Source: an uncultured bacterium
GTDB lineage: Bacteria; Chloroflexota; UBA5177; JANWHV01
NCBI GenBank assembly: GCA_963827235.1
Contig: CAWHAE010000009.1
Coordinates: 1,152,001 to 1,216,000, forward strand
Direction: 5' to 3'
DNA: 64,000 bases
The position numbers and the translations under genes are program-made. The notes under the pieces were generated by a model, which was not told where the DNA came from, ran no database searches, and saw nothing but the letters and a program-made list of their open reading frames with translations. Below, piece after piece: positions 10,710 to 64,000 of this stretch (positions are counted from its first letter, which is position 1; every line of letters begins with the position of its first letter).

Positions 10710-10716
10710 GTAGCAC

Positions 10717-10995: not shown

Positions 10996-11343
10996 TCAGA
11001 ACAGCCACACCAGGGTGGCGCGCGGAGCGTCCGGGGAAGTTGCCAGAACGGACCCGCGGCAACCGGCCTGGCTCTCGATGCGTAGCCGCAGGGCATCGAG
11101 GCCGAGTCCCCCGGGGAGCGGGCGAGAAGAGCCGCGGCCCTTGAGCCATATGCGACACGTGATGCCTTCGCCGAGCGTGGACGGCATCACCTCTACCATG
11201 CCTACTGCCGGATGCTCACGCAGGTGAGCAGTGGCCTGCATCACGAGGGCGAGGCAACGGCGGTAATAGAGCGGGCGAGGCTCAGGCCAGGCATGGTCGC
11301 TAGCTGCCATGTACCACCTCTTCTCTACTTGAGGGTAGCCCAT
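10996..11343 (-). CDS. Hypothetical protein
   Basis: Open frame with protein-like composition directly downstream of the MBL gene. No recognised motif; start uncertain. Confidence 0.35.
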   Translation of the reverse strand: MGYPQVEKRWYMAASDHAWPEPRPLYYRRCLALVMQATAHLREHPAVGMVEVMPSTLGEGITCRIWLKGRGSSRPLPGGLGLDALRLRIESQAGCRGSVLATSPDAPRATLVWLF

Positions 11344-11401
11344 GGCGTCGTTCTGCGCGCGGCGACTGCTATCCGCGGGCCAAGGCGGCGGCAGGCACCG
11401 C

Positions 11402-12178
11402 CTACTTGCTGCTGCCCGGCCCGTCTTCCCGGAAGCGAGCCATGGCCGCATGGTAGTCCGCAGCGCTGCCGGTATGGGCGGTAACCAGGAGCTCGACGCC
11501 GTCGAGCAGACCCTGCATGCCGGAGGCTAGACGCCGGATGGAGGCCACCGACTGGTCGGAATCGTTGTTCATTGCCGGCCAGGTCACTTCGGCCACACCG
11601 TTGCGCAGCATCAGCAGGTCGCCCGTGAACAGCCAGCGGCCGTTGACCAGGTAGCTGGTGGAGCCCGGCGTGTGGCCCGGAGTGAGGATGGCGCGGACGG
11701 TGATGCTGCCGTGTGTGGCGGTCTCGCCATCGGCAATCGTCGAATAGGGCCGGCCAAAGCCGTGGCGAGCTCGCATGGAGAAGAAGAACATGCGTCGTGG
11801 TGCCGCACCTGTCGCCACGGGCACCTCGGCCTCGGGCAGGATGACGCGCGCCCTGGAGTAGAGATCGAGGGCGCCGACGTGATCCCGGTCGGAGTGAGTG
11901 AGATAGACGGCATCGACGGTGTCCGGATCGACCGGCAGGGTGGCCAGGGCGCGGGCAAAGCGGTCTCGCCGCATGCCCGCGTCAATGGCGATGCTCGTGT
12001 GTCCATCGCTGATTACGTAGCCGGCTACGTTTCCGTCCCGGATGGCCCAGAGTCCTTCGGCCCGCGGGCCCGTTACGCAGACATTGCGCATGGGGGCAAA
12101 TCCACGCATGGCGCGAACGACTGCCACGGCCAATCCGGCGACGGCAATCAGAACGGCCGGCAGGATCTTCTTTGGCAT
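11402..12178 (-). CDS. MBL-fold metallo-hydrolase with N-terminal membrane anchor
   Basis: IDAG, THSDRDHVG, TPGHTPG, FTGD, TAHTG. Confidence 0.9.
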   Translation of the reverse strand: MPKKILPAVLIAVAGLAVAVVRAMRGFAPMRNVCVTGPRAEGLWAIRDGNVAGYVISDGHTSIAIDAGMRRDRFARALATLPVDPDTVDAVYLTHSDRDHVGALDLYSRARVILPEAEVPVATGAAPRRMFFFSMRARHGFGRPYSTIADGETATHGSITVRAILTPGHTPGSTSYLVNGRWLFTGDLLMLRNGVAEVTWPAMNNDSDQSVASIRRLASGMQGLLDGVELLVTAHTGSAADYHAAMARFREDGPGSSK

Positions 12179-12336
12179 ATTCCTTACTCCCTGGAGTGCT
12201 TCGTTTCCCATACACAATTGTAGAGCTGTCCGAGGCTCCCGTCTGTTTGGGGGATGGGCGCCCCAGCCGCCATGATCTAGACTTTGCTCACGAGCAGGTG
12301 TCTGGTCTGGGCACCTCGACTCCTGGGGAGTGGGGA

Positions 12337-47248: not shown

Positions 47249-47565
47249 ATACGCCGCCTAGCGTAGCATGTGGCCGCGCGCTACGACACGCGAGTTGCGC
47301 TACGCTGTGCCCCGACCTACTCGAGTCACCACCAGTAGACATCCTTCCTGCCGGCCAGCGAGCTGCTCGCCGCCGCCGAACAGGCTCCTGGACCTGCTAC
47401 GATGCTTGAGGTGGCCTCATCTGTGATCGGCTCCGTACGTTTGCGCGGCGTCAAGCGGCAGTCTGCACGCCAATCGATTATTGATGCAGCGGAAGCGTGA
47501 CTACCGAGCAACTTCGAAGTGCTGTTGGACCCTTTCGGATAGGCCGAGGAAAGGAGTGCAGCGAG

Positions 47566-48417
47566 ATGTTTGGACAGATCATGGTGCCGCTGGACGGATC
47601 AGATCGTGCTGAGCGGGCATTGCCCTACGCAGTCCAGCTGGCAAAAGGGATGGCCGCCACACTGCACCTGGTACGTGTGGATGACTTCGTTGCTTCAATG
47701 ACCTGGGCTTTCGCACCACCCTACTTGCCGCCTGACGCCTACGAGGCCGCGGTAGCGCCGATTACGGCGTATGTCACGGCGCTCCGGCAGCGCCTGGAAG
47801 GCGAAGGACTGCGGGTGCGGAGCGAGGTGCTTACGGGAGCTGTCGCTCTATCCCTGCTGGACTATGAGCAGGCGGCGCATGTTGATTTGGTGGTCATGTG
47901 CAGCCACGGGAGGAGTGGGGCGGCCCGATTCGCCCTGGGGTCCGTCGCCGACCGGCTGCTGCGACATGGCAGCGCACCGGTGCTGCTGGTACGCGCGTTC
48001 AGCGCACCGCTGGATCTGACGCGCGTTGTGGTGCCGCTCGATGGGTCGGCGCGCGCCGAGGCGGCGCTCGGCGTCGTCGCTGCACTGGGTCGTGCGATAG
48101 TTGGTAACGTCACCTTGCTGCGGGTGATTGGCGGCGAGGAAGACGAGGCGGAGGCCCAGGCGTATCTGACCACTCTGGCACTGCGCTTGCAGCAGGATCA
48201 GCTGAACTGCCGGCAGCGCGTCGAACGCGGCGAGCCGGCGCAGACGATCATCGAGGTGGCTGGCAAGGATTCGTTGGTTGTCATGGCCACGCATGGACGG
48301 TCCGGCCTGACTCGATGGGCGTTGGGGTCGGTAGCCGATCGGGTGTGCCACGACGGGGTGGCGGGCGTCTTGTTGGTACGCACAGGTGCCACGGCTGCAG
48401 AGCCTGTCCTCCGCTAG
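47566..48417 (+). CDS. Universal stress protein (tandem USP domains)
   Basis: IMVPLDGS..AERAL twice; VMCSHGRSG..LGSVADRL and VMATHGRSG..LGSVADRV. Confidence 0.95.
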   Translation: MFGQIMVPLDGSDRAERALPYAVQLAKGMAATLHLVRVDDFVASMTWAFAPPYLPPDAYEAAVAPITAYVTALRQRLEGEGLRVRSEVLTGAVALSLLDYEQAAHVDLVVMCSHGRSGAARFALGSVADRLLRHGSAPVLLVRAFSAPLDLTRVVVPLDGSARAEAALGVVAALGRAIVGNVTLLRVIGGEEDEAEAQAYLTTLALRLQQDQLNCRQRVERGEPAQTIIEVAGKDSLVVMATHGRSGLTRWALGSVADRVCHDGVAGVLLVRTGATAAEPVLR

Positions 48418-48501: not shown

Positions 48502-48552
48502 ACTCGCATCCTACGCACTGTCCGTCCCACGTACCGTCCCTCGATCTGTCCC
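48502..48552 (-). promoter_or_regulatory. Copy 1 of the 12-bp-periodic GGGAC + TAGGATGCGAGT promoter motif
   Basis: GTCCC at 48524, 48536, 48548; ATCCTA at 48508-48513; 10-nt gap. Confidence 0.6.
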
Positions 48553-51500
48553 TCTCTCCCCGTTGCTCGTGCCGAGTGAGATGGTTTGTGCCGGTGGGTT
48601 AGTCGCAGCGCTCACAGGTGAGGGCGACAGGGGCGTTGTCTGCTGCGGTGGTCCATCCACTGCAAAGGCGACTGCCCACGCGTGCTGCACTCGTGCCGCC
48701 CATGCCAATAGCCCAGCGCGCTCGCCTGTGGTGAGACGAGCCTCGACGCGTGCCAATGCCGCGGCGCTCGCCTCGAGGTCGCCGTGCGACAGGCTGGTCT
48801 CGGCAAGCCAAAGATCGATTTGTGTTTGGAGGTGCGGTGCGCACAGCGATGCACACAGGGTGCGTGCGTCTTCGAACAGCGCTGCAGCCGCGTCCAGATC
48901 ACCGCGATCGTAGGCGATACGACCCAGATTCATCTGATAGCGCGCGAAGAGCTCCTGGTTCCCATGGCGCTCCGCCTCGGCCTGCCCCCGTCGAAACCAC
49001 TCCTCTGCCTCACTCCACCGCCCTTCTGCCAAGGCAATCTCGCCCTGTGTGCCATGGAGCCACTGGGACGGGAGGTCTAGCCTCTGCGCCCGCGCCACAC
49101 GCACGCCGGCGTCGACATACGCGTGCGCGCGGCCGTGGTCGCCGTACAGCAGTGCGTGGTGCGATGCATGGTTGGAAGCTAGCGCTTCCCAATAGCCGTC
49201 TCTAGCTTCCTGTGCCAGGCCCATTGCCGTCTCACATGCCACAAGGGCGCCGGCAACGTCCCCGCGTTCGGCGAGCACGTGGCCGAGCTCCAAACGTCCT
49301 CGGGTCTCCAGCAGTATGAGGCGATGCTCTGCGGCCAGGCGTATCGTGTGGGCAAGATGCGTCCCTGCCTCGGCCAAGGACCCGCGATCGCGCCGGTCCA
49401 GACCAAGCAAGAGATGAGCGTATGCACATGCCTCCGGTTCCTGCTCGGTTTCGAGATAGGCCAGGCTCCGCTCAGCCCAGCGCACATGCGCTTCTGGCCG
49501 GCAGGACTGGGCCTCAACCTCGGCGAGTCCGAGCGCGGCCCGCGCGGCCTCTATCCACTCGCCGGCGGCCTCATAGCGCTCCAGTGCCGACATGTAGGCG
49601 GCTTGCGCGCTCGGAAGATCCCCTGCGCGGACAAGCGCGCGCCCTAGCCCCATGTAGCGCTCAGGCGTCGGTTCAAACGTCAGGGCTCGCTGGAAGAATG
49701 CGGCAGCCTCGGTCGGTGCCGCGAGCCCCAAGGCGTGCTGGGCGGCCATATCGGCGAAGTGCGCTGCCGTGCTCGAGAGCCGCGCGGCGGCGTAATGCTC
49801 GGTGAGCCGGCCGGCCAGCACAGGCAGGTGTTCACGTCGGGTGACTGCCGACAGCGCTTCGGCAGCACGGCGATGCAGTACGGCGCGGCGCGCGCCACCA
49901 AGGTCGCTCCGCACGATGGCGGCAACAAGCGGATGGGTGAAGCGGTACCCGCCGTCCCCTTCGATCAGCATCGCGGCGGCGGTGAGCGCGTCCACTGCGT
50001 CGAGCGTTTCCTCCTCGCTTCGCCCGCTCACCTCGCACAATGCCGCGAAGCCGCCGCCCGGCTCGAGCACCGCTGCCGCGTGCAGGACATCCTGTGCAGC
50101 CTCGGGTAACCGGGAGAGGCGTGCCCGCACGAGGTCGGCCAGTGAGCCCGGCACAGCTCCGCGTGGCGCGCGGGCCAGCTCGATGAGAAAATAGGGATTG
50201 CCCCCACTGAGCGCGTGCGCCTCGGCTGCATCTTCCGGGCTGCCGCCTGCCGCGGCGAAGAGGGTCTCCCCGGCAGTGGATGTCAAGCGAGAGAGCGCCA
50301 CTGTCCGCGCCACTCCCAAATGCTGCCAGGTGGCGAGGAGCCGCGCCAGCCCCGGCGACTCGTCGCCGGAGCGGTAGGAGGCTACCAGCAACAGCGGCAC
50401 GTCGCGGAGGCGTCGCACCAGGAAGGCGAGCCAGGAGAGCGTCGTGCTGTCGGCCCACTGGAGGTCGTCAACCCACAGAATCAGCGGAGCCGCAACGAGG
50501 GCGCTCACGCACTGCGTGAGCGCCTCGAAGAGTCGGCTCTGTTCCTCGGCCGGGGGAAGGTCGGCGCGCCGCGGCAGATCGGGGCGCGTGAGGCCGATGT
50601 CGGGAAGCAGACGGGCAACCTCGGCCAGCCAGATCGGAGCTACCGGGCACTGGCGGGCGAGCAGGCGCTGGCGCACGGCGCGTCCGGCCAACAGGTCGAT
50701 CACCGGCGCGAGTGGCAGGAGCTGCACAGCCTCAAGGCAGAGCATCTCCAGGACCGTCGACTGACGTGGCAAGGCTGCCGACCATTCACACCACAGTCGT
50801 GTCTTGCCGATGCCTGCCTCTCCCGTCAACAGTGCCACGCGCGCATGACCCTGTGAGACGTACCGCAGCTCATCGTCCAGTATCGCCAGGTCGGCGGCGC
50901 GCTCCATGAACGGCGTCTTCCCAGGCGCGGCACTACCGTACTCGTGGCGACCTGCAAGGGTCGCGTCCGCCACGGCGGGGAGGGTTCCCGCCACGATACG
51001 CGCTCGCATTGCGTCGCTTTCCGGCAGCGGTACCACGCCGAGCTCACGTTCCAGGGTCGTCCGTAGCGTGTCGTACCACCCGAGGGCTCGAGCGCGGTCG
51101 CCAAGCATGGCATGCGCCTCCATCAGTGTGCGGTAGGTGGGTTCATGCAAGGGATCCACGGCGAGAGCACGCTCCGCCACGGAGATGATCTCATCCCACC
51201 CGGCCCGTGAGCGGAGCATGCCGATCAGAGCGCCAAATAGATACACCTGGACACGGGCCAATCGCTCGCGCTCCGCCGCGAGCCAGAGCTCGAAATCCGG
51301 CGCCTCCGTGAGCAAGAGTCCCTCGACCAAGGTCCCTCGATACAAGGCAATGACCTGGCGCAAGTTTTCCAGGGGCAGTACCGTCGCGCCGTTATCCTTG
51401 CAGCGCACAGCCGCAGCGTCAAACTCCCACAAGTCGACGCGCAGCGCGCGGTGGAGGGCGAGGTGCTCTGCCGACGCCACCACTACATCCTGGCCAAGCG

Positions 51501-51726
51501 TTTCGTGGAGAGACCACAGCACATTGCGCAAGTTCTTGCGCGCGGCCACCGAGGAACTCTCGCCCCACAGGAGAACCTGGAGGTGCTCACGCGTCTGCGG
51601 CAACCTCGATGCGGCAAGATAGGCCAGAAGGGCAACGGACTTGGCCCGCCGGACCACCGCGCCTTGGTCCCCTCGCAGGAAGCGCGGCGGCCCCAGGAGG
51701 TCGAGCTGTACAATGGACTGTTCCAC
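48511..51726 (-). CDS. SARP-type regulator: winged HTH-BTAD-STAND ATPase-TPR
   Basis: LLGPP, ALLAYLA, LYRGTL..APDFELWL, DPLHE, GEAGIGKT, VDDLQWAD, GGNPYFL, FTHPLV, helical repeats. GTG after GGAG. Confidence 0.92.
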   Translation of the reverse strand: MEQSIVQLDLLGPPRFLRGDQGAVVRRAKSVALLAYLAASRLPQTREHLQVLLWGESSSVAARKNLRNVLWSLHETLGQDVVVASAEHLALHRALRVDLWEFDAAAVRCKDNGATVLPLENLRQVIALYRGTLVEGLLLTEAPDFELWLAAERERLARVQVYLFGALIGMLRSRAGWDEIISVAERALAVDPLHEPTYRTLMEAHAMLGDRARALGWYDTLRTTLERELGVVPLPESDAMRARIVAGTLPAVADATLAGRHEYGSAAPGKTPFMERAADLAILDDELRYVSQGHARVALLTGEAGIGKTRLWCEWSAALPRQSTVLEMLCLEAVQLLPLAPVIDLLAGRAVRQRLLARQCPVAPIWLAEVARLLPDIGLTRPDLPRRADLPPAEEQSRLFEALTQCVSALVAAPLILWVDDLQWADSTTLSWLAFLVRRLRDVPLLLVASYRSGDESPGLARLLATWQHLGVARTVALSRLTSTAGETLFAAAGGSPEDAAEAHALSGGNPYFLIELARAPRGAVPGSLADLVRARLSRLPEAAQDVLHAAAVLEPGGGFAALCEVSGRSEEETLDAVDALTAAAMLIEGDGGYRFTHPLVAAIVRSDLGGARRAVLHRRAAEALSAVTRREHLPVLAGRLTEHYAAARLSSTAAHFADMAAQHALGLAAPTEAAAFFQRALTFEPTPERYMGLGRALVRAGDLPSAQAAYMSALERYEAAGEWIEAARAALGLAEVEAQSCRPEAHVRWAERSLAYLETEQEPEACAYAHLLLGLDRRDRGSLAEAGTHLAHTIRLAAEHRLILLETRGRLELGHVLAERGDVAGALVACETAMGLAQEARDGYWEALASNHASHHALLYGDHGRAHAYVDAGVRVARAQRLDLPSQWLHGTQGEIALAEGRWSEAEEWFRRGQAEAERHGNQELFARYQMNLGRIAYDRGDLDAAAALFEDARTLCASLCAPHLQTQIDLWLAETSLSHGDLEASAAALARVEARLTTGERAGLLAWAARVQHAWAVAFAVDGPPQQTTPLSPSPVSAATNPPAQTISLGTSNGERGTDRGTVRGTDSA

Positions 51727-51910
51727 AGCAGTGGCTCCGCAGCGCCTCTTTCGCACGCAAGTATACACCGGCCCGGGACTTGCGACCATGAACCGGCTTC
51801 GGCCGGGCATGTGTCACGATTGTGGTCATCCAGATCAACCGGAATCCGTACCGGCGTGTGCGATTGCCGCCGACGCAGTCTGTGTCGCTCCTGGCGAGCA
51901 GTGGGGCGTG

Positions 51911-51974
51911 AGGGACGGACAAAGGGACAGATCGAAGGACGAGACACGGGACAGCGCGCGTGTAGGATGCGAGT
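51911..51974 (+). promoter_or_regulatory. Copy 2 of the 12-bp-periodic GGGAC + TAGGATGCGAGT promoter motif
   Basis: GGAC at 51913, 51925, 51937, 51949; TAGGAT 51963-51968; 10-nt gap. Confidence 0.65.
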
Positions 51975-52326
51975 GCAGGTGACGCCCGGGAACAGGCCCG
52001 ACACGGCCGTCGGGCTGAAGCTGGGTGTTCTGGCACGCCGCGGTGAGCCCACGCTGGAAAGCGAGGTGAAGGCGAAGGCTATCGTGGCCCGCCATGCAGA
52101 TGGTGTGCAGGAAGCAACCATGCCCACGCCACAGCGGGAGCAGCCGCAGAAGAATGAGGCGGGCTGGGCGCGCAGTCGCGGCCAGAAGGCACCTGCCGTG
52201 GAGCGGGTCGACTCAGGCGCCACGATGCCGATTGGGACATGAGTCGGCAGTGACGAAGCGGGACCGCGACGACTGATGCACTGCACGGCGACAGCTTGGC
52301 GACGGCACGACAGCGGAAGGACAGAC

Positions 52327-53007
52327 ATGATGGCAGAATCGTCTGCAATGAGCGACACGCAAATCCAGCAGGATGTCCTGCGGGAGTTGCGCTGGGACAG
52401 TCGGGTCGAGGCACCCGATGTCGGCGTGGCAGTGCACCACGGCGTGGTGACGCTGACCGGCACAGTCGAAAGCTATGCCACGAAGCTCGCGGCGGCTGAG
52501 GCTGCGCACCGGGTGGCAGGTGTCCAGGATGTCGCCAACGACCTCACGATCAAGCTGCCGGGCATTGGCGACCGGACCGATGCGGAGATTGCGCAGGCGG
52601 TGCGGCAGGCCCTGGCCTGGGATCCGCTCGTGCCTGATGAGCACATCCAGAGCACGGTAAGCAACGGCTGGGTCACGATCACGGGGAAGGTTGACCGCTG
52701 GGCGCAACGGGAGGACGCCGCGCATGCCATCCGTCACCTCTGGGGCGTCCTGGGCGTGACCAATGAGATCACGATCAGCGCGCCGCAGGTGGATCCCGCG
52801 AGCATTCGCACCGCCATCGAGGAGGCGCTGGACCGTCGCGCCGACCGCGAGGCCGGGCGGATCCACGTGCAGGTCAAAGACGGCATCGTGACGTTAACCG
52901 GCAGCGTGCGCTCCTGGGCGGAAAAGCAGGCCGTAGTCGGCGCCGCCGGGCACGCAAAAGGTGTCAGCGGTGTACGCGATGAGCTGGGCATCAAGCCACT
53001 TGCTTGA
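52327..53007 (+). CDS. Triple BON domain protein (OsmY-like)
   Basis: Three repeats of G.VTL.G.V...GV..V.N.L; GGAAGGA SD. Confidence 0.93.
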   Translation: MMAESSAMSDTQIQQDVLRELRWDSRVEAPDVGVAVHHGVVTLTGTVESYATKLAAAEAAHRVAGVQDVANDLTIKLPGIGDRTDAEIAQAVRQALAWDPLVPDEHIQSTVSNGWVTITGKVDRWAQREDAAHAIRHLWGVLGVTNEITISAPQVDPASIRTAIEEALDRRADREAGRIHVQVKDGIVTLTGSVRSWAEKQAVVGAAGHAKGVSGVRDELGIKPLA

Positions 53008-54928: not shown

Positions 54929-55684
54929 CTATGAGCGCTCCGCCTGCTGGCTGGGGAGCGACCGCTCCGCCTGCGTGGCAGTCAAGAACGATGCCGGCGA
55001 GTGCACGACTGCATAGATGGCCGCAGCCACTGCCGCACCGATCAGTGGTGCCACGATAAACAGCCAGAGCTGGCCGAGCGCCCAGCCGCCTACGAACAGG
55101 GCGGGCCCAATGCTGCGAGCCGGATTCACCGATGTATTGTCGACCGGGATACCGACCAGGTGGATCACGGTCAGAACCAGGCCGATACCAAGCCCGGCGA
55201 AGCCCACGGGGGCCTTGATGTCGGTGGTGCCGAGCACGGTGAAGACGAGAAAGAAGGTCAGCACCACTTCCGCGACGAACGCAGCCAGGAGACTGTACTG
55301 GCCCGGTGAATGGTTGCCGAAGCCGTTGGCGCCGAAGCCTCTGGCGCCGGGATCGTAGCCGCCCGGCGCACCCTTCGCGATGACAAGGAGCAACACTGCC
55401 GCGACGATTGCTCCCACTACCTGGGCCACGATGTACCCGGGGACGTCCCGGCTAGCCATCTTCTTGCTGAGCCACACTCCGAGTGTGACGGCCGGATTGA
55501 CGTGACAGCCAGAAACCGGCCCGATGGCGTAAACCATGGCGAGCAAAGAGAGCCCAAAGGCGACGGCCACGCCGAGATTGCCAATCTTCGCGCCGGCAAC
55601 GACGGCACTACCGACACCACCGAAGACCAATACGAATGTGCCGACGCATTCGGCGAGATACTTGTTCCACGCAAGGCCTGCCAT
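54929..55684 (-). CDS. aqpZ: Aquaporin Z
   Basis: SGCHVNPAVT and NTSVNPARS (two NPA motifs), ANGFGNHSPG, QLWLFIVAP. Confidence 0.93.
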   Translation of the reverse strand: MAGLAWNKYLAECVGTFVLVFGGVGSAVVAGAKIGNLGVAVAFGLSLLAMVYAIGPVSGCHVNPAVTLGVWLSKKMASRDVPGYIVAQVVGAIVAAVLLLVIAKGAPGGYDPGARGFGANGFGNHSPGQYSLLAAFVAEVVLTFFLVFTVLGTTDIKAPVGFAGLGIGLVLTVIHLVGIPVDNTSVNPARSIGPALFVGGWALGQLWLFIVAPLIGAAVAAAIYAVVHSPASFLTATQAERSLPSQQAERS

Positions 55685-56079
55685 GTCTCTACCTCCCGCG
55701 TTGCGGTGTGGCCGCAGCGATCGCCATACACCCACAGCGTGTTTCACTGCGCGCCGCTGCCGGCCCTCTCCGGATGACCTCGCCAGGAGGATGGTGCCGG
55801 TCCGGCATCGCTACGATCCGCAGCCAGCCCGATTCTACACCTCCGCAGGGTGCAGGTCGAGAAGAGGTCTCCGCAGCATGCGAAAAGGCGTGCGACGCCT
55901 CGTAGGCGGCCGCCATACCAGGCAAGAACTTGGTATGATGGCCCCCGGCCGGCGGCGGTGAAGCCGCCTAAGTGCCCGGGCCTGGCATCGTGCCACCCGA
56001 CCAGGCTAGCATCCGGCGTCGTGGGTAGTACGTGAGGCCTGGGCGGCTATTGCGTATCGCCGAGCAGAGAGGGTAAGCA

Positions 56080-57129: not shown

Positions 57130-58284
57130 TCATCCTGCCTCTTCCTTGAGCTGCAAGAAGGCATGCGGGTCGACGCGCCAGGCGCCCATCGCGTTCCCGG
57201 CAAACTCACAGGCGGTGGCGGACGCACGACTCCTGGGCGAGAGCTCCATGCCCCAGGTCGCGCTCATACTGACGGCCGTGTGGGCCAGGTCAAGCGTTCC
57301 GCCCTCCAAGACGCGAATACCGGAACTCCCTGTGCCGACGACGCGGCAGTCGACCATGGCAAATGCAGCGTCGTTCGACACGATGACGCCATTCCCCTCG
57401 CACCGGCGCACCGTGACATTCTCGGCGCAGTGGTTGCCGCCGCCTCCCACGTAGATGCCCGTCTCAGTCGTGCCATCGATCTCGCTGTCTTCGATAACGC
57501 AGGCCTGGCCGTCATGACCGCCGGGTACGTACAGGCCCGGTTGGTCGATATAGACGCCGTACCTACCGCTCAGGATTCTCGACCGATAGATCAGCACACC
57601 GCATCCCACCGCCGCGTGCACGCCACAGCCCGTGGCGGCAATCGCACAAGCCTTCAGCTCACATGACGCCCGGTTGCTCACCGAGACCCCCCGCCCGTCC
57701 CGTCGCGCGTTCCGCACACGAACACGCTCCAACACCGCGTGTGTGCCAACGCCCTGGACCCCGATCCCGGCGCGGGCCGCGCACGCGAGGAGACAGCCCC
57801 GCATGGACAACGAGCCCTGCTGGACGGCCACTGCTGTGAGGTCAGCCGCACCGGTGCAGCGAAGGGTCAGGCCGTGCAGTATTGCGGCTCCTCCCGCCAC
57901 GACCACGCAAGGCACACCCACCGTGGCGATCACGGGAAGCCCCGCATGGCCAACGCCCACGATCTCGAGTGGCTTGTCGATGGTGAGCGCCTCGGTGTAG
58001 ACTCCCGGCCACACGAGAATGCGGCTCATCGGCTCCACGTGCCGGATAGCTTCGGCGATCGAGCGGAACTGGGCCAGCTCTCCCGGTCCCACGGTCACGA
58101 CGCTGCCGCGGCACGACTGTGACTCCGGAAGGCGAGGCGCGAGGACTGCAGAGTCGCCGGGCGGCGTGGCCCTGGAATGACACACCACCGTGCCCGAGCC
58201 CGCGTTCGCCTGCGGTACCTCCACGGGCCTGCGTGTATCAGGACGCAGACGGGTGACTTCGCACCCGTATTGTGACTTCAGCAT
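57130..58284 (-). CDS. Right-handed parallel beta-helix (pectin-lyase-like) repeat protein
   Basis: FRSIAEAI..ILVWPGVYTEALTIDKPLEIVG, then repeated G[IV]xV beta-helix rungs. Confidence 0.82.
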   Translation of the reverse strand: MLKSQYGCEVTRLRPDTRRPVEVPQANAGSGTVVCHSRATPPGDSAVLAPRLPESQSCRGSVVTVGPGELAQFRSIAEAIRHVEPMSRILVWPGVYTEALTIDKPLEIVGVGHAGLPVIATVGVPCVVVAGGAAILHGLTLRCTGAADLTAVAVQQGSLSMRGCLLACAARAGIGVQGVGTHAVLERVRVRNARRDGRGVSVSNRASCELKACAIAATGCGVHAAVGCGVLIYRSRILSGRYGVYIDQPGLYVPGGHDGQACVIEDSEIDGTTETGIYVGGGGNHCAENVTVRRCEGNGVIVSNDAAFAMVDCRVVGTGSSGIRVLEGGTLDLAHTAVSMSATWGMELSPRSRASATACEFAGNAMGAWRVDPHAFLQLKEEAG

Positions 58285-58288
58285 GATT

Positions 58289-58840
58289 CTACCCTCTAGA
58301 CTCGATTGGCCCGCGCCGATGACTGCCCGGCACGGCGATCGCATGGTGTGCTCGCCGGCGTAGGCTCGGCGGTGCGGGCCTTGCAGCGGTTGGCAGTTGT
58401 GGGACATGTGCCGCGCGATGCCGAGCGGCTGCAAGCTCGGTGAGCACCGCGCGGAGGACAGCGCCTTCACCCGCGTCGACGGGCAGGCTGAGTGGCCCGA
58501 CGAGCCGTCTGCGCAGCGGGGTAGCAAGAGAGGCCCACACGTACGCTTGCGCTCTCGGCGGTCCGACCACAAACACGTAGTCGAACGGTCGGGCGACATG
58601 GAGCGCCGCCGCCACACGTGACACCCGCATCGCCAGCTGTTGGAGCTGGTGGCCGGTAAGCGGTGCTTGCCGTGAAACGGCAGGATTCCTGCTGCCGGCC
58701 GCGGAAGCGGCCGCGACTGTGTACTCGCGTGCATCTTCGATGCGAGTCCCTCGCACGCAGATCACGCGTGCATGTGCCCCGTCGAACAGTATGACGGCGG
58801 CGCGTTGTGTGATGCTGGGATCGGTCGGTACCTGGATCAT
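58289..58840 (-). CDS. baeRF/host-attachment family (eRF1 domain-2-like) protein
   Basis: AVILFDGAHARVI; FDYVFVVGPP..LATPLRRRLVGPLSLPVDA. Divergent sequence. Confidence 0.6.
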   Translation of the reverse strand: MIQVPTDPSITQRAAVILFDGAHARVICVRGTRIEDAREYTVAAASAAGSRNPAVSRQAPLTGHQLQQLAMRVSRVAAALHVARPFDYVFVVGPPRAQAYVWASLATPLRRRLVGPLSLPVDAGEGAVLRAVLTELAAARHRAAHVPQLPTAARPAPPSLRRRAHHAIAVPGSHRRGPIESRG

Positions 58841-58989: not shown

Positions 58990-59235
58990 CCGTACAGCCC
59001 GGGCACACGCCGTGGGAGATGACGGCACCATAAACCGGCAGGGACCGCGCCCGCACGGCAGCTGGTTCGCACTCCAGCACGTGGCGCCGCTGATTTCACC
59101 CCAGGCTTTGCGGAACAGAGTGTTGACGCGTTATCGTGTCGAGTGAGGGCAGCTGCACCGCAATGATCGCCGGTGCGACGCAGAGATGGGTACGCGGCGC
59201 ATACCGCCGGTTGCAGCGAGGAAGGCCGGGTGTTG

Positions 59236-62200
59236 ATGGGTCAGCTTCGCCTCGCGCTCCTTGGGCCGCCCGAAGTCTGGCTTGGCGAGCGGCGAATCAC
59301 GCTGCGCACCCACAAGGCGCTGGCCTTGCTGGCCTATCTCATCGCGGAAGAGGCCGCGCGCCCGCGCGATCAGCTCGGGGCGCTGCTCTGGCCGGAGCTC
59401 GACGGCGTGGGCGCTCGGAACAACGTGCGCGTGAGCCTGTTCTATCTGCGGCACGCCCTGGGTAAACCCGCTCTGACCACCTTCGGCGATGTCGTCGGCT
59501 GTGCGCCCTCGACCATCGAGGCGTCGGACCTGCATCAACTGGCTCAAGCTGAGCGGCGTGCCCGAGCGAGCGGCCACGCGGCAGGAATCCGTGCTGAGCT
59601 ACAAGCGGCGACCGCGCTCTATCGCGGCCCGTTTCTGGACGGACTGGTGGTACCGGACGCGCCTGACTTCGAGACCTGGCTGGCAGGTCAACGCGCGCAC
59701 TGGCACGGCGTCATCCTTGCAGTGCTCGACCGGCTGGCTACAACGCGGCTCGAGGCCGGCGAGGCGGCCGGTGCCCGAACATCGCTGGAGCGCCTGGTCG
59801 CCCTCGACCCCGGCGTGGAAGACGCCTGGCAGCGACTGCTCGCACTGGATCTCGACGCGGGTGACATACTCGGAGCCCGTCGAGCCTGGACGGAATGCAG
59901 GCAGGCGATGGCCGATCTGGGCCTTGCACCGGGCGCTGCACTCGAGGCCATCGCCTCGCGCCTCGAGGTTCCGGGTGCGCTGCATTCCGCGGCCGCCCCC
60001 GATATCGGAGCCGATGCGGCCGGCGACGTGCTCGCCGACCTGCCCTTGGTTGGACGCGCACAGCACTCTGCGGTGTTGCACCGACTGTTCGAGCGTTGTC
60101 AGGCCGGTCAGTTTGCGCTTGGCGTGCTGCTCGGAGAGGCCGGTGTCGGCAAGACGCGCCTGGCCGGCGAGTTCCTGGCTTGGGCCCGCGAGCACGGCGC
60201 GGAAACGCTGGCCGGCCGGGCTTTCGGGCCGGAGGGTGGTGTGCCCTATGCTCCCGTGGTGGAGGCGTTGCGTCCGGGTCTCGAGCGTGAGAACGCGCCA
60301 GAGGATTTGCTCGGCGACGTCTGGTTGGCTGAGCTCGCCCGGGTGCTGCCCGAGCTGCGCGAGCGATATCCCGACCTACCTGCCACCACTCCCGACCTTG
60401 CTCTGGAGCACGCGCGCCTGCTCGAGGCGGTAGCTCGGCTCGGCCTGGCTCTGGCCGCACGCCGGCCGGTGGTGCTGTTCCTTGACGACGCGCAATGGAA
60501 CGACAAGGGGACACGCGACATCGTACGCTACACAGCTCGCCAGTGGAGCGAAGCGGGGGCGCGGATCCTGCTGCTGCTGGCCATACGGGCCGACGACCTG
60601 ACGCGCGATCCCGAGCTGCCGCGGTGGCTGGGCGGCCTGGAGCGCGAGTCTCCCATCACCCGAGTCGAGCTTGGGCGGCTGGCGCCGGAGGATGTTGCGC
60701 AGCTGGTTGACTTGCTCGGAGGGAGTGACGACGGAGACGCACCGGAAGCCGGCGAAGGCAGGAGCTCGGCCTTCGGGCAGTGGCTCGCACAGCAGTGCGA
60801 CGGCAACCCTGCCGCGCTGGTACGGACACTGCGCGCCATGCTGGCGACCAATCAGATGAGCTGTCGAACGCGCGAGGATGGCAGCCGGGCGCTCGAGCTG
60901 CGGGCTACCCCGCCACCGCTGCTTCCGGCACCGCGCCGGCAATCGCGCCTGGACTGGGGCGATGCTCCGGACACCGCCGGCTTCTTCGGTCGAGATCGGG
61001 AGCTCGCCGTGCTGGAGCAATGGCTCGTCGCCGACACATGCCGGCTTGTCTCCTTGATCGGCATCGGCGGTATCGGCAAGACTGCTCTCGCGGCACGACT
61101 GGGCCGTGCTGTCGCGGCGCAGTTCGACGCCGTCGTCTGGCGCAGCCTGCGCAACGCGCCGCCAGTCGACGAGTGGCTGGCTGATATGGTAAGCGTGCTG
61201 GCGGCGCGACCGGGCAGCCTGCCGGTGGGCGTCGAGGCGCGGCTGGCGCTCCTTCTGCAGGTTCTCCGAGAGCAGCGCTGCCTGCTTGTCCTCGATAATC
61301 TGGAGACCGTGCTGGCGCCGGGGGTGTGCGAGGGACGCTACCGCGACGAGTATGCCGGCTACGGCCGGGTTCTGCAGCAGATAGGGGAGCTGGCTCACCA
61401 GAGCTGCCTCTTGCTGACGAGCCGCGAGCTGCCGGCCGAGCTGACCGGTCAGGAAGATGCACATGGCCCGGTACGCACGCTTCGCCTGCAGGGACTGGAT
61501 TTGGAGGCCAGCCGCGCGATGCTGCATGACCAGGGGCTCAGCGGCACAGAGCAGGCGTGGCAGGAGCTGGTAGCGCGTTTCGGCGGGAACGCGCTGGCGC
61601 TCAAAATGGCGAGCCACACGATCCGTGATCTCTACATTGGTGACATCCCGGCCTTCCTGCACGATCTGCGCGGGCCGTCCGGCGCCGTCTTTGGCGGCAT
61701 CAGGCAGCTCTTCGGCACACAGGTTGAGCGCCTCTCGCCGCTCGAGCGCGATATCCTTTACTGGCTGGCGATCGAGCGCGAACCGGTAGGCTTCGGCAAG
61801 CTGACCGCCGATCTCGAGCCCACCTCCTCGCACGGCGACGTGCTCGAAGCGCTGGAGGCGCTTCGACGTCGCTCGCTGATCGAGCGTGGCGAACATCCCG
61901 GTACCTTCACGCTGCAGCCGGTGATCCTGGAGTATACGGCCAACCGCCTCGTGGAGGCTGCGTCCCAAGAGATCCAACAGCGGAGGCCGCAGGTCTTGCT
62001 GCGTCACGCGCTGCTCCAGGCAACAGCCAAAGACTACGTGCGGCGCAGCCAGGCGCGACTGATCGCCGGCCCGCTGCTGGAACGCCTGGTGGCTGCTGAC
62101 GGCAGTGCGGCGGCGGTCGAGCAGCGATTGCTGGGTCTGCTCGGGAGTTGGCGCGGTCAGGCATTTCCGGATCCCGGCTACGGTCCGGGTAATGTCGTGA

Positions 62201-64000
62201 ACCTGCTGCGGCTGATGCGGGGGGATCTGCGCAATCTTGACCTATCTCGCCTGGCGATTCGGCAGGCGTATCTGCAAGAGGTCGATGCGCAGGACAGCAG
62301 CCTTGCGGGCGCCCATCTGACCGAATGCGCGCTTCCCGACGCCTTCTTCTATCCGACCTCCGTTGCCCTGGACGGGAACGGCACCCATCTGGCAGCGGGG
62401 ACCTCGCACGGCGAGCTGCGGGTCTGGCGCCTGTCCGACCGCACGCCTATCCTTGCGGCGCAGGGCCACAGCAATGGCGTCTACGGCCTGGCGCTGGCGG
62501 CAGGCGGCTCGCTGATGGCCGCCGGCAGCGTCGACGGTACGGTCACGCTCTGGGATGTGTCCACGGGTCAGCTCGTCCGCAGGCTCGAAGCGCACGGAGG
62601 GCCGGCATGGGGCGTCGCGCTCAGCGGAGACGGGCAGGTAATCGCCGCAGGAATTGCCGATGGCACCGTCAGAGTCTGGGAGGCCATGACCGGTCGTACT
62701 GTGCACACCCTGGAAGGACATAGTGGTCCCGTTTGGGGTGTCGCGTTGAGCGCCGACGGTCACATGCTCGCCAGCAGCAGCTATGACGGTACGGCCAGGC
62801 TCTGGGAGCTGCCCAGCGGCGCGCTGCTTGCCACACTGCGGGGTCACGCGAGTGGTGTCCGGGCAACGGCCTTGAGCGCGGACGGGCGGCTGGTGGCCAG
62901 CGGAGGTTACGACGGTACGGTCCGGTTGTGGGAAGCAGCGGGCGGCCGGCTCCTGGCCACGCTACAAGGACACACCGGCTGCGTCTGGGGGGTCGCGTTG
63001 AGCGCGGACGGACGCCTCCTGGCGAGCAGCAGCTATGACGGCACGGTGAAGCTCTGGGAGGCGCCAAGCGGCCGGCTGATCGCGACCCTGCAGGGCCATA
63101 CCGGCTACGTCTGGGGCGTTGCACTCACCCTACAAGGGCGGCTGGTGGCCAGCGGGAGCTATGACGGCACGGTGAGGCTCTGGGAGGCACCGGGCGGGCA
63201 GGTCCTGGCGACCTTGCAGGGACAGATCGGCGGTGTCAGCAGGCTCGCCATCTCGGCGAATGGCCGGCGCGTGGCCAGAGGTGGTATGGATGGCGTGGTC
63301 AAGGTCTGGGCGACCGCCCAGGGCCGGCTGCTAGCCACTTTGCAGGGCCACAGCGGCGGGATCTACGGCGTGGCGATCTCAGCCGATGGCCGCCTGGTAG
63401 CCAGCGGCAGCCGCGACGGCTCGATCCGGCTGTGGGAAGCGGCGAGCGGTCGTGCTCTCGCGACCCTTCAGGGCCACACCGGTCTGGTGTGGGGCGTGGC
63501 GCTCTCGGCCGACGGCAGGCTGTTGGCCAGCGGTAGCTTTGACGGCACGGTGAAGCTCTGGGACGTGGCTAGCCGGCGGCTGCTTAGCACCCTGCACGGC
63601 CACTCCGGCGGCATCATCGACGTAGCACTGTCGGCCGACGGCAGGCTGGTGGCCAGCGGTAGCGACGACGGGACGATTACCGTGTGGAAGGTGGAGAGCG
63701 GCGAGCTGGCGGGCACCTTGCAGGGGCACAGCGGCGCCGTCCGCGGCGTGGCATTGAGCGGCGACGGGCAGCTCGTGGCCAGCGGTGGCGATGATGGCCT
63801 GCTGACAGTCTGGGACATAGCCCGGGAACGCGAACTGACCACGGTGCGCGCGCACTCGGGCGGCGTACTGGACGTCTCGCTCAGCAGCGATGGGCGGCTG
63901 GTGGCCAGTGCCGGGCTGGATTCGGTGGTCAAGCTCTGGAACGCATCCAGCGGACAACCTCTTGCCACGCTGCGCGGCCATACCGGCGCGGTGCGGGCGG
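59236..64000 (+). CDS. SARP regulator with two tandem STAND ATPases and WD40 repeats (runs off the window end; missing from the ORF track)
   Basis: Hand translation: MGQLRLALLGPP..ALLAYL..LYRGPFLD; GEAGVGKT/LDDAQW; DWGDAPD..FFGR..GIGGIGKT/LVLDNLE; NLLRL..DLS..IRQAYL; GH..WD repeats. Confidence 0.92.
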   Translation, partial: MGQLRLALLGPPEVWLGERRITLRTHKALALLAYLIAEEAARPRDQLGALLWPELDGVGARNNVRVSLFYLRHALGKPALTTFGDVVGCAPSTIEASDLHQLAQAERRARASGHAAGIRAELQAATALYRGPFLDGLVVPDAPDFETWLAGQRAHWHGVILAVLDRLATTRLEAGEAAGARTSLERLVALDPGVEDAWQRLLALDLDAGDILGARRAWTECRQAMADLGLAPGAALEAIASRLEVPGALHSAAAPDIGADAAGDVLADLPLVGRAQHSAVLHRLFERCQAGQFALGVLLGEAGVGKTRLAGEFLAWAREHGAETLAGRAFGPEGGVPYAPVVEALRPGLERENAPEDLLGDVWLAELARVLPELRERYPDLPATTPDLALEHARLLEAVARLGLALAARRPVVLFLDDAQWNDKGTRDIVRYTARQWSEAGARILLLLAIRADDLTRDPELPRWLGGLERESPITRVELGRLAPEDVAQLVDLLGGSDDGDAPEAGEGRSSAFGQWLAQQCDGNPAALVRTLRAMLATNQMSCRTREDGSRALELRATPPPLLPAPRRQSRLDWGDAPDTAGFFGRDRELAVLEQWLVADTCRLVSLIGIGGIGKTALAARLGRAVAAQFDAVVWRSLRNAPPVDEWLADMVSVLAARPGSLPVGVEARLALLLQVLREQRCLLVLDNLETVLAPGVCEGRYRDEYAGYGRVLQQIGELAHQSCLLLTSRELPAELTGQEDAHGPVRTLRLQGLDLEASRAMLHDQGLSGTEQAWQELVARFGGNALALKMASHTIRDLYIGDIPAFLHDLRGPSGAVFGGIRQLFGTQVERLSPLERDILYWLAIEREPVGFGKLTADLEPTSSHGDVLEALEALRRRSLIERGEHPGTFTLQPVILEYTANRLVEAASQEIQQRRPQVLLRHALLQATAKDYVRRSQARLIAGPLLERLVAADGSAAAVEQRLLGLLGSWRGQAFPDPGYGPGNVVNLLRLMRGDLRNLDLSRLAIRQAYLQEVDAQDSSLAGAHLTECALPDAFFYPTSVALDGNGTHLAAGTSHGELRVWRLSDRTPILAAQGHSNGVYGLALAAGGSLMAAGSVDGTVTLWDVSTGQLVRRLEAHGGPAWGVALSGDGQVIAAGIADGTVRVWEAMTGRTVHTLEGHSGPVWGVALSADGHMLASSSYDGTARLWELPSGALLATLRGHASGVRATALSADGRLVASGGYDGTVRLWEAAGGRLLATLQGHTGCVWGVALSADGRLLASSSYDGTVKLWEAPSGRLIATLQGHTGYVWGVALTLQGRLVASGSYDGTVRLWEAPGGQVLATLQGQIGGVSRLAISANGRRVARGGMDGVVKVWATAQGRLLATLQGHSGGIYGVAISADGRLVASGSRDGSIRLWEAASGRALATLQGHTGLVWGVALSADGRLLASGSFDGTVKLWDVASRRLLSTLHGHSGGIIDVALSADGRLVASGSDDGTITVWKVESGELAGTLQGHSGAVRGVALSGDGQLVASGGDDGLLTVWDIARERELTTVRAHSGGVLDVSLSSDGRLVASAGLDSVVKLWNASSGQPLATLRGHTGAVRA
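62340..64000 (+). repeat. 126-bp (42-aa) WD40 tandem repeats, at least 13 units
   Basis: GH/AH/GQ starts every 126 nt from 62464 to 63976. Confidence 0.9.

What the first reader, a model, noticed from the sequence alone, without database searches (positions are those of the whole stretch)
59236..62340. One polypeptide with two different STAND ATPases in tandem
Seen in one continuous frame: wHTH-BTAD, ATPase 1 (GEAGVGKT, LDDAQW, DGNP; same class as the 48.5-51.7 kb regulator), a Pro-rich linker, ATPase 2 (DWGDAPD-FFGR, GIGGIGKT, LDNLE, GGNALAL; NB-ARC type), then WD40s. Both Walker A/B sets look intact. Known: STAND/NLR proteins normally have one NTPase between effector and sensor. Inference: an NB-ARC-WD40 receptor replaced the TPR sensor of a SARP-ATPase, creating a two-stage switch. 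The gene is absent from the ORF track because it runs off the window.
Basis: partly seen in the sequence, partly recalled or inferred. Interest (0 to 1): 0.72.

Follow-up and report, generated by a model that had tools for sequence, protein, structure and literature searches.

The report
SARP regulator with two tandem STAND ATPases
A real 1672-residue bacterial gene joins a DNA-binding activator head to two different ATP-switch modules in a row and a double WD40 propeller, a rare and unstudied design that seems to have arisen more than once.

Summary
One open frame (window 59236 to the window end; stop 254 nt beyond it) encodes 1672 aa: SARP head (wHTH-BTAD), an AAA_16-type STAND module, a short Pro-rich linker, an NB-ARC/NACHT-type STAND module and 14 WD40 repeats. 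It is not an assembly chimera. 13 other full or near-full proteins and 3 fragments from independent assemblies have the same order, with both Walker A lysines kept in 16 of 16 aligned rows. The design is rare: 1 of 401 sampled genomes of the phylum (the window's own), 0 of 75 species-representative loci of the head family, 2 of 80 metagenome loci. The head nests among SARP-AAA_16-TPR regulators and the body among XRE-NB-ARC-WD40 proteins, so the "sensor replaced" reading is supported. AU tests reject a single origin of all fused forms, implying at least three joins or later module swaps. The "two-stage switch" is untested. Relatives show erosion of the first module: a conserved Arg is lost in 10 of 10 rows of one clade, and the lid is deleted in the closest relative. 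The window's copy keeps every motif. No paper found describes bacterial tandem STAND modules. Targets are unknown. This is a new variant of a known kind.

The parts
59236..64000 (+). Gene for the 1672-aa SARP / AAA_16 / NB-ARC / WD40 protein. It runs off the window; its stop codon lies at window-equivalent 64252-64254.
59236..60021 (+). SARP head, aa 1-262: OmpR-type winged helix (about aa 1-95) plus BTAD (Pfam 100-242).
   Evidence: Pfam BTAD. The model shows a strand/helix pattern of a winged helix. Foldseek matches the AfsR SARP chains 8k60_J and 8hvr_I, TM 0.66-0.67 by target, 247 columns, 27% identity.
60022..60900 (+). STAND module 1 (AAA_16 / MalT-LAL-like), aa 263-555: five-strand P-loop core, helical lid, short winged-helix hairpin.
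   Evidence: Pfam AAA_16 270-436; secondary structure of the model
60133..60156 (+). Walker A of module 1, GEAGVGKT (aa 300-307).
   Evidence: Lys306 kept in 15 of 15 fused and 74 of 74 head-only relatives
60469..60489 (+). Walker B of module 1, VVLFLDD (aa 412-418).
60586..60588 (+). Arg451 at the end of the strand after Walker B. I read it as sensor-1-like by position; this is inference.
   Evidence: R in 69 of 74 head-only relatives, 2 of 2 in the window's clade, 0 of 10 in the second fused clade
60802..60810 (+). GNP (GxP) motif of module 1 (aa 523-525).
   Evidence: Pro525 kept in 15 of 15 fused and 74 of 74 head-only rows of the module-1 alignment. P0004, which lacks this region, is not in that alignment.
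60901..60951 (+). Pro-rich linker between the modules (aa 556-572); this is the fusion junction.
   Evidence: pLDDT below 50 for residues 558-569
60952..62340 (+). STAND module 2 (NB-ARC/NACHT-like), aa 573-1035: N-terminal DWGDAPD..FFGR lead-in, P-loop core, helical domain, winged helix, second helical domain.
   Evidence: Pfam NB-ARC and NACHT; model; Foldseek hits to RPP1, CED-4 and a wheat resistosome
61060..61083 (+). Walker A of module 2, GIGGIGKT (aa 609-616).
61282..61305 (+). Walker B region of module 2, LLVLDNLE (aa 683-690).
   Evidence: LDNxE in 16 of 16 fused rows
61912..61920 (+). LQP (aa 893-895), at the place where NB-ARC proteins carry the MHD latch. The placement rests on secondary-structure position only.
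62371..64000 (+). WD40 repeats, 14 in the whole protein. They run on past the window end.
   Evidence: the profile matches the Apaf-1 propeller region
48511..51810 (-). Paralogous SARP-AAA_16-TPR regulator (1099 aa), the single-NTPase form of the head.
52276..53007 (+). Triple-BON-domain gene next to that regulator. A 46%-identical paralogue lies 354 nt downstream of the tandem-STAND gene, outside the window at window-equivalent 64608-65423.

Best explanation
This is a genuine gene for a SARP-family transcription activator whose output is controlled by two different STAND NTPase modules in series. It arose by gene fusion. One partner supplied the head and nucleotide-binding module of a SARP-AAA_16-TPR regulator, cut exactly at the boundary between that module and its sensor. 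The other supplied the NB-ARC-WD40 body of an XRE-HTH-NB-ARC-WD40 protein, cut just before its DWGDAPD lead-in. I put this part at about 0.9. The proposed working is inferred, not shown, and I put it at about 0.35-0.4. The double seven-blade WD40 propeller is the sensor. Ligand binding lets the NB-ARC module exchange ADP for ATP and oligomerise, as in Apaf-1 or AfsR. This brings the AAA_16 modules together, and their own ATP-dependent association is a second condition. Only then do the SARP heads sit side by side on direct repeats at a promoter and recruit RNA polymerase, as shown for AfsR. The two modules would act as a coincidence (AND) gate. The target genes are unknown. The triple-BON gene just downstream and the divergent beta-helix gene are candidates by position only.
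For: Architecture and motifs are given.

The architecture is conserved in independent assemblies. A segment map of 261 fetched relatives gave 14 head+module 1+module 2 proteins (query included) and 3 fragments with both modules. Pfam confirms AAA_16 plus NB-ARC/NACHT in one chain for members of three clades: P0123, P0013 and P0017. Two metagenome contigs carry the closest form.

Catalytic motifs are kept. Both Walker A lysines are present in 16 of 16 rows. Module-1 DD is present in 15 of 16 rows, and module-2 LDNxE and TSR in 16 of 16.

The window's module 1 also keeps Arg451, which 69 of 74 head-only relatives have.

Origin of the two halves. Module 1 nests among SARP-AAA_16(-TPR) proteins and module 2 among XRE-type NB-ARC-WD40 proteins.

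The fusion recurs. AU tests reject one clade for all fused rows, on module 2 (p 4.9e-51) and on module 1 (p 5.5e-4).

Fold. The model has two P-loop cores, each with a lid and a winged helix. Foldseek finds the AfsR SARP, NLRs, and tandem D1-D2 AAA proteins.

Mechanism of the head. [quoted passage not shown] It also reports inhibition by the nucleotide-binding module and TPR that is relieved by ATP binding.
Against: There is no functional, expression or binding data of any kind.

Module 1 is eroded in relatives. The 10-member fused clade has S or A instead of Arg451 (0 of 10) and R, H or P directly before the Walker B aspartates (10 of 10). The closest relative has 20 residues where the window's protein has 84 (aa 480-563). 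That stretch is the lid, the GxP motif and the hairpin. A full second switch is therefore not required for the fused design.

No SARP-type direct repeats at 10-12 or 21-23 nt spacing were found in four candidate promoter regions. The gene neighbourhood is not conserved in the closest relative, which has a chemoreceptor and hydrogenase genes and no BON gene upstream.

The AU groups were named after seeing the trees. The tests used LG+G4 without mixture on quick trees.
Confidence: 0.5

Rival explanations
1. There is only one working switch. The NB-ARC-WD40 body is the only regulated STAND. The AAA_16 module is a nucleotide-binding but non-cycling spacer or oligomerisation scaffold between the ring and the SARP heads, that is, a pseudo-switch.
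For: Relatives tolerate loss of module-1 features. Arg451 is absent in 0 of 10 rows of the large fused clade, against 69 of 74 present in head-only relatives, and an unusual R/H/P sits before Walker B in 10 of 10. The lid, GxP and hairpin region is deleted in the closest relative, on two contigs. Module 1 scores fewer bits per residue between fused relatives than module 2: about 240-265 bits over 303 aa against 480-514 over 470 aa.
Against: The window's own copy keeps Walker A, a canonical Walker B, Arg451 and GNP. Lys306 is kept in 16 of 16 aligned rows. Module 1 of the window is as close to head-only relatives (51-53% identity for P0071 and P0124) as to fused ones.
Confidence: 0.3
2. The protein has a conflict or immune role. 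It would be an NLR-like sensor of an invader or of non-self protein, as proposed for NTPase-repeat proteins of multicellular bacteria, with the SARP head switching on a defence or stress programme instead of specialised metabolism. This concerns the biological role and is compatible with either mechanism above.
For: The body belongs to a large, diversified XRE-NB-ARC-WD40 family in filamentous Chloroflexota. Kaur et al. 2020 (PMC7159879, passage seen) list HTH domains among effector modules of such systems. The WD40 repeats are 73-74% alike at the DNA level. Stress-type neighbours are present: BON, Usp, aquaporin.
Against: PADLOC gave no hit. There is no adjacent toxin or effector gene, no mobile-element signs nearby were noted, and there is no phage data.
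Confidence: 0.2
3. It is an artefact: an assembly chimera, or two adjacent genes read as one through a sequencing error at the junction.
For: Public runs did not cover the junction bins 60692-60899, so there is no direct read support. The genome bin has 9% estimated contamination.
Against: The same order of modules, with an aligned junction, occurs in 13 other proteins and 3 fragments from other assemblies at 42-65% identity. Composition is even across the junction. The contig is 1.3 Mb long.
Confidence: 0.02

Closest known systems
AfsR and other 'large SARPs' of Streptomyces (SARP - NB-ARC - TPR)
   Same: It has a SARP head (fold match to AfsR chains 8k60_J and 8hvr_I) followed by an NB-ARC-type nucleotide-binding module and a repeat sensor. 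In AfsR the head is inhibited by the nucleotide-binding module and sensor, and ATP binding relieves this (abstract of PMC10936776).
   Different: An extra AAA_16 STAND module lies between the head and the NB-ARC. The sensor is a 14-blade WD40 rather than TPR. LQP stands where AfsR has F/Y-H-D. The organism is probably Chloroflexota, not Actinomycetota.
SARP-LAL regulators (PimR, SanG, FilR) and the SARP-AAA_16-TPR family of Chloroflexota, including the window's own 48511-51810 gene
   Same: The head plus AAA_16 module is homologous: 31% identity to the window paralogue and 51-53% to P0071 and P0124. The review PMC10972967 (passages) describes SARP-LALs as a SARP head plus an AAA/LAL-type ATP-binding half.
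   Different: Those proteins have a single NTPase followed by TPR or a LuxR-like remnant. Here a whole second STAND receptor takes that place.
XRE-HTH - NB-ARC - WD40 proteins of Chloroflexota, and Apaf-1 as the structural archetype
   Same: Module 2 plus the propellers are 54-60% identical to these proteins. The double propeller matches the Apaf-1 WD region by profile.
   Different: The small XRE head is replaced by SARP plus AAA_16.
Plant NLRs with tandem NB-ARC domains (e.g. wheat WTN1; Pib)
   Same: They have two STAND nucleotide-binding domains in one polypeptide (abstract of bioRxiv 10.1101/2024.08.30.610185, and titles and term counts in the listing).
   Different: The plant cases are duplicated domains of the same kind in immune receptors with LRRs. 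Here the two modules come from different STAND clades, and the output is a DNA-binding head.
Type II AAA+ proteins (p97/Cdc48, NSF, Rix7)
   Same: Tandem P-loop-plus-lid units; these were the top Foldseek hits over 570-720 columns.
   Different: The TM-scores are very low (0.14-0.17 by query). They belong to a different ATPase clade and form hexameric unfoldases. The resemblance is of layout only.

Membership tests
SARP (OmpR-type winged helix + BTAD) | BTAD domain | tested here: met
   Pfam PF03704, residues 100-242, 46.2 bits against a cut-off of 22.1
SARP (OmpR-type winged helix + BTAD) | N-terminal OmpR-type winged-helix DNA-binding domain | tested here: met
   There was no Pfam Trans_reg_C hit at E<=0.1. 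However, the model of residues 1-95 has the strand/helix order of a winged helix. Residues of the head also align to the AfsR SARP chains 8k60_J and 8hvr_I over 247 columns, with TM 0.66-0.67 by target.
SARP (OmpR-type winged helix + BTAD) | Binds heptamer direct repeats at the -35 element and activates transcription | not testable with these tools
   No repeats at 10-12 or 21-23 nt spacing in four candidate regions. This does not settle the question.
STAND NTPase, AAA_16 / MalT-LAL-like (module 1) | Walker A, Walker B hhhhDD, GxP lid motif, winged helix after the lid | tested here: met
   Pfam AAA_16, 93.4 bits against a cut-off of 32.6. Motifs at 300-307, 412-418 and 523-525. Hairpin at 541-555 in the model.
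STAND NTPase, NB-ARC/NACHT-like (module 2) | Pfam NB-ARC or NACHT above the cut-off; Walker A; Walker B; TSR (RNBS-B-like); GxP | tested here: met
   NB-ARC 40.9 bits (cut-off 23.5) and NACHT 29.0 bits (cut-off 26.7). GIGGIGKT, LLVLDNLE, LLTSRE and GGNALAL.
STAND NTPase, NB-ARC/NACHT-like (module 2) | MHD-type His latch in the winged helix, as in plant NLRs and AfsR (F/Y-H-D) | tested here: inconclusive
   LQP lies at the matching secondary-structure position. Gln is there in 16 of 16 fused rows, and TLQ-type patterns dominate the commonest ones listed for the C-only and SARP-NB-ARC relatives. The position was assigned by pattern, not by superposition.
Large SARP of AfsR type (SARP - NB-ARC - TPR) | TPR sensor directly after a single NB-ARC that follows the SARP head | tested here: not met
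   There is no TPR after the NB-ARC; WD40 stands there instead. An AAA_16 module is interposed.
SARP-LAL | SARP head plus a single LAL-type ATP-binding half with a LuxR-like remnant | tested here: not met
   The AAA_16 module is present, but it is followed by NB-ARC-WD40. No LuxR-type match was found.
Apaf-1-like double WD40 propeller sensor | About 14-15 WD40 blades C-terminal to the nucleotide-binding module | tested here: met
   14 repeats at 42-aa spacing. Pfam WD40 E=1e-129. The profile matches Apaf-1 residues 610-920.
Known anti-phage STANDs (Avs, bNACHT and others in PADLOC) | Match to a PADLOC model | tested here: not met
   0 families for residues 1-1035

The most novel reading that the evidence does not exclude
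Heterotypic tandem-STAND regulators are a recurrent design in Chloroflexota that evolved independently at least three times. An NB-ARC-WD40 receptor ring serves as a platform that nucleates a second, MalT/LAL-type ATP switch. Transcription is activated only when a sensed ligand and a second nucleotide-dependent condition coincide. This would be a protein-level AND gate built from two NLR-like modules, and a bacterial parallel to the tandem NB-ARC immune receptors of plants.
Probability: 0.25. Interest if true: 0.75.

Novelty: new variant of a known kind. Interest (0 to 1): 0.55.

Why it matters
STAND/NLR proteins are understood as one nucleotide switch set between an effector and a sensor. This protein places two switches from different STAND clades directly in series, with an easily assayed output (DNA binding and transcription). 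Independent lineages appear to have made the same join. That makes it a tractable system for asking how one nucleotide-binding oligomerisation module can control another, and whether tandem modules compute coincidence. It could also show why some lineages then let the first module decay. In addition, it extends the published SARP classification (small, medium, large, SARP-LAL) with a form that combines the LAL-type and NB-ARC-type ATPases.

Tried and rejected
Read support across the junction. One search found four runs, all with small word shares of 0.07-0.08. Laying them gave only scattered 151-nt contigs identical to the stretch, plus pieces of other organisms' genes on the Walker A region. 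The bins 60692-60899 had no cover and no piece bridged the junction. No RNA holder was listed. This says nothing for or against the junction or expression.

SARP boxes. No exact 7-mer direct repeats at 10-12 or 21-23 nt spacing were found in the own upstream region, the region before the downstream BON gene, the region between the 48.5-kb regulator and its BON gene, or the upstream region of the closest relative. The repeat finder gave only 9-mers at spacings 18, 19 and 39. The sigma-70 and terminator scan found nothing above the shuffled background.

Conserved neighbourhood. The closest relative's contigs carry a chemoreceptor and hydrogenase genes upstream and no BON gene. Their downstream side is cut off by the contig ends. 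The BON link therefore rests on this genome alone.

Sequence search of the PDB. The single protein gave no hit at E<=0.001. The profile search was swamped by WD40 entries.

Other tools. PADLOC gave no hit. Complex prediction of module 1 against module 2 was not available. In the protein Atlas, the nearest large clusters are all single-NTPase SARPs; this is a lead only.

Earlier notes of this scan. None describes tandem STAND modules.

Literature. Searches, and term look-ups inside PMC13581612, PMC7159879 and PMC8195603, found no description of bacterial proteins with two STAND NTPase modules. Supplements were not read.
Full report
**1. What is there**

The window holds one long frame, 59173..63999 (+), with no stop before the window ends. 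In the window's own genome (contig C9; window = C9:1152001-1216000) the frame ends 254 nt further on. From the ATG at 59236 the protein has 1672 residues. That ATG is the likely start, because relatives begin at aligned residues 1-5.

Pfam on residues 1-1035 gives four domains above their curated cut-offs:
- BTAD, residues 100-242;
- AAA_16, residues 270-436;
- NB-ARC, residues 591-688;
- NACHT, residues 603-731.

The rest is WD40, as 14 repeats at a 42-residue period. GC content is even across the junction.

An AlphaFold2 model built on a 16-row alignment has mean pLDDT 73.6 and pTM 0.38. It shows a winged helix plus helical BTAD. A five-strand P-loop core with a helical lid and a short hairpin (263-555) follows. 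Then come a disordered linker (558-569) and a second P-loop core with a lid, a winged helix and a second helical domain (573-1019).

Foldseek against the PDB returns three kinds of match:
- the SARP chains of the AfsR transcription complexes (8k60_J and 8hvr_I; TM 0.66-0.67 by target);
- NLRs (RPP1, CED-4, a wheat resistosome);
- at the top, tandem D1-D2 AAA proteins (Rix7, Cdc48/p97, NSF), over 570-720 columns but with very low TM-scores.

The last group reflects the two-module layout, not kinship.

**2. Is it an artefact?**

No. A search of 5.8 billion proteins with residues 1-1035 found proteins of 1653-1709 aa that cover 98-100% of the query at 47-50% identity. Several of them are named by their source [quoted passage not shown], or come from Chloroflexota MAGs.

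I mapped three query segments by phmmer: A = 1-262, B = 263-565 and C = 566-1035. The targets were the 261 proteins fetched. The classes were:
- 14 A-B-C, the query included;
- 3 B-C fragments;
- 48 A-C;
- 9 A-B;
- 157 C only;
- 30 of the classes CC, ACC, ACCC, CCC and AAC.

Pfam confirms AAA_16 plus NB-ARC/NACHT in one chain for P0123, P0013 and P0017.

Public reads could not test the junction directly.

**3. How rare is it?**

- In the window's genome there is one such gene. A C-only paralogue lies on contig C12, 54% identical.
- Among 401 genomes sampled from the phylum, own genome included, 42 had a match at E<=1e-60. Only the own genome had a match spanning 1-1035. All other matches covered either about 1-557 or about 530-1035. 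Only two candidates per genome were scored.
- A scan of 185,579 species-representative genomes used two module-1 peptide patterns and kept 75 loci. In my ORF map, 66 carried module B with no module C after it. Most of these also carried the SARP head, many a TPR-like tail, and none had more than one Walker A match.
- Of the other 9 loci, 6 were short frames with the head only, 1 was SARP-NB-ARC-WD40 and 2 were NB-ARC-WD40.
- The same patterns in metagenome contigs kept 80 loci, of which 2 (L091, L092) matched 1-1035.
- tblastn of module C against all 155 of these loci found it joined to module B only in those two.
- The Atlas's nearest large clusters are all single-NTPase SARPs; this is a lead only.

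**4. Where the halves come from**

Module B nests among SARP-AAA_16 proteins that continue into TPR. The window itself holds such a paralogue at 48511-51810. Module C nests among proteins with an XRE-type HTH in front and WD40 behind. In the TPR-bearing relatives the B segment ends at the same point, with the TPR-like match beginning 20-40 residues later. The join therefore lies at the boundary between the nucleotide-binding module and the sensor. It can equally be described as "XRE head replaced".

**5. One origin or several?**

On the module-C tree (245 rows, FastTree) and the module-B tree (90 rows, IQ-TREE quick) the fused proteins fall in four places:
- group 1: the window's protein with P0004 and P0123;
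- group 2: P0005-P0014;
- group 3: P0015 and P0017;
- group 4: P0016.

The AU tests for module C used a reduced set of 56 of the 245 rows. It held all 16 fused rows, the 7 nearest non-fused rows of each of six fused rows, 12 random C-only rows and 6 random A-C rows. The results were:

| Rows held as one clade | Module | p-AU |
|---|---|---|
| All 16 fused rows | C | 4.9e-51 |
| Groups 1+2+3 | C | 9.6e-8 |
| Groups 1+2+4 | C | 6.2e-67 |
| Groups 1+2 | C | 0.28 (not rejected) |
| All 15 fused rows | B | 5.5e-4 |
| Groups 1+2 | B | 0.77 (held-together tree is the better one) |

The module-B tests used 67 rows. I had dropped 22 near-duplicate head-only rows, and the window's 48.5-kb paralogue, which had been added to the 90-row tree, was not included.

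Groups 3 and 4 also have 70-200 extra residues between the modules. The data therefore fit at least three joins, or one join followed by module exchange. Two caveats apply: the groups were named after seeing the trees, and the model was LG+G4 without mixture.

**6. State of the two NTPase sites**

In 16 aligned rows:
- both Walker A motifs keep GK[ST] in 16 of 16;
- module-2 LDNxE and TSR are kept in 16 of 16;
- module-1 DD is kept in 15 of 16 (ED in P0016).

In a wider module-1 alignment of 15 fused and 74 head-only rows, Lys306 and Pro525 are invariant. An Arg at the end of the strand after Walker B (Arg451) shows a different pattern. I read it as sensor-1-like by position, which is my inference. 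It is present in:
- 69 of 74 head-only relatives;
- 2 of 2 rows of group 1;
- 0 of 10 rows of group 2 (S or A instead);
- 1 of 2 rows of group 3;
- 1 of 1 row of group 4.

Group 2 also has R, H or P just before the Walker B aspartates in 10 of 10 rows.

The closest relative (P0004 = L091 and L092, 57-65% identical) has 20 residues where the window's protein has residues 480-563. It therefore lacks the lid, the GxP motif and the hairpin of module 1. The window's copy has a complete module 1, but the fused design survives without one.

In module 2 an invariant Gln (LQP, 893-895) stands where NB-ARC proteins and AfsR carry the His of the MHD latch. This holds across the C-only and A-C relatives as well, so it is not special to the fusion.

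**7. Mechanism**

The head should work as in AfsR. [quoted passage not shown] The C-terminal nucleotide-binding module and TPR inhibit it, and ATP binding relieves that inhibition (abstract of PMC10936776).

My best reading is a serial switch. The WD40 propeller senses a ligand, and the NB-ARC module exchanges nucleotide and oligomerises. Proximity then drives the AAA_16 modules into their own ATP-dependent association, which arrays the heads.

The main rival is that module 1 is only a scaffold, as the erosion in relatives suggests. Nothing here separates the two readings. The tool that might have tested contact between the modules was unavailable.

**8. Role and targets**

These are unknown. 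Locally, both SARP-AAA_16 regulators of the window lie next to a triple-BON-domain gene. The first pair is 52276-53007 beside 48511-51810. The second is window-equivalent 64608-65423, 354 nt downstream of the tandem-STAND gene. The two BON proteins are 46% identical.

Nearby genes include an aquaporin, a tandem Usp protein, a DUF2721 protein and an M48 peptidase. This suggests a stress or dormancy regulon, but the link rests on position in one genome. The closest relative has other neighbours, and no SARP-type repeats were found. PADLOC gave no hit.

**9. Comparison with what is known**

The SARP review PMC10972967 (passages) and the AfsR preprint 10.64898/2026.09.02.748808 (abstract and passages) classify SARPs into four kinds:
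- small;
- medium (SARP + NB-ARC);
- large (SARP + NB-ARC + TPR);
- SARP-LAL (SARP + AAA/LAL-type half).

None has both ATPases. Tandem NB-ARC domains are known in plant NLRs such as WTN1 (abstract in the listing), but those are duplicates of one kind.

I found no description of bacterial tandem STAND modules in five searches. Three broad STAND surveys checked by term did not mention them either. Supplements were not read.

Among the 261 relatives, 48 have two to four Walker A/B pairs by a simple pattern (at least one, P0128, looks like a false hit inside a WD40 repeat). In most of the non-fused ones the second module lies after the propeller, roughly 960-1170 residues beyond the first. That looks like two complete receptors end to end. 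In a few others, such as P0149, P0181, P0190, P0207, P0251 and P0260, it lies about 750-950 residues on, or about 450 in P0018. In the window's protein the two modules are adjacent, with no sensor between them.

**10. Verdict**

I rate this a new variant of a known kind: rare, recurrent, uncharacterised and readily testable.

Noticed in passing
window 48511-53007, and L003 7608-8423 (window-equivalent 64608-65423): Two SARP-AAA_16 regulators (31% identical over 514 aa) each lie next to a triple-BON-domain gene, and the two BON proteins are 46% identical. Nearby genes encode an aquaporin (54929-55747), a tandem Usp protein (47497-48417), a DUF2721 protein and an M48 peptidase. This may be a duplicated regulator-target cassette for osmotic or dormancy stress.
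   Followed up: partly
proteins P0019, P0022, P0027, P0032, P0125, P0149, P0251, P0260 and others: 48 of 261 fetched relatives have 2-4 Walker A/B pairs. Examples are a 3933-aa protein with four and a 3282-aa protein with three, both with a SARP head. There are also many XRE-NB-ARC-WD40 proteins with a second NTPase after the propeller. Multi-STAND polypeptides seem common in this group, and I found no paper on them.
   Followed up: partly
window 61912-61920 (aa 893-895) and relatives: The whole NB-ARC-WD40 family here, including C-only and SARP-NB-ARC forms, has TLQ[PSN]V where plant NLRs and AfsR have the MHD / F/Y-HD latch, so Gln stands in place of His. The position was assigned by secondary structure only.
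   Followed up: partly
L073 (Ktedonospora formicarum contig) 1445-12246: A 724-aa SARP-AAA_16 gene lies 2 kb upstream of an XRE-NB-ARC-WD40 gene, in the same orientation. A second XRE-NB-ARC frame followed by an overlapping WD40 frame comes after that. This is the unfused arrangement of the two partners side by side, seen in 1 of 155 loci.
   Followed up: partly
window 60280-60400 (aa about 350-381), in module 1: A strongly conserved stretch, E-N-A-P-D/E-D-L-L ... W-L-A-E-L ... P-E-L-R-x-R-Y-P-D-L, lies between Walker A and Walker B of the AAA_16 module. It is invariant at many positions in 16 rows and is shared with the head-only family. The locus-search tool chose it as the family signature. 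Its function is unknown.
   Followed up: no
L003 7080-7250 (C-terminal tail, beyond the window end): After the last WD40 repeat a short tail, consensus R-x-Y-E-R-[LM]-D-I-T-G-L-[ST]-G, is conserved among the fused relatives (consensus).
   Followed up: no
window 57130-58734 (-): A 534-aa right-handed beta-helix (NosD-like) protein is encoded divergently, 500 nt upstream of the tandem-STAND gene. It is a candidate target by position only.
   Followed up: no
whole genome G000: The genome bin is estimated 95.9% complete with 9.06% contamination. The window's contig is 1.3 Mb long.
   Followed up: no
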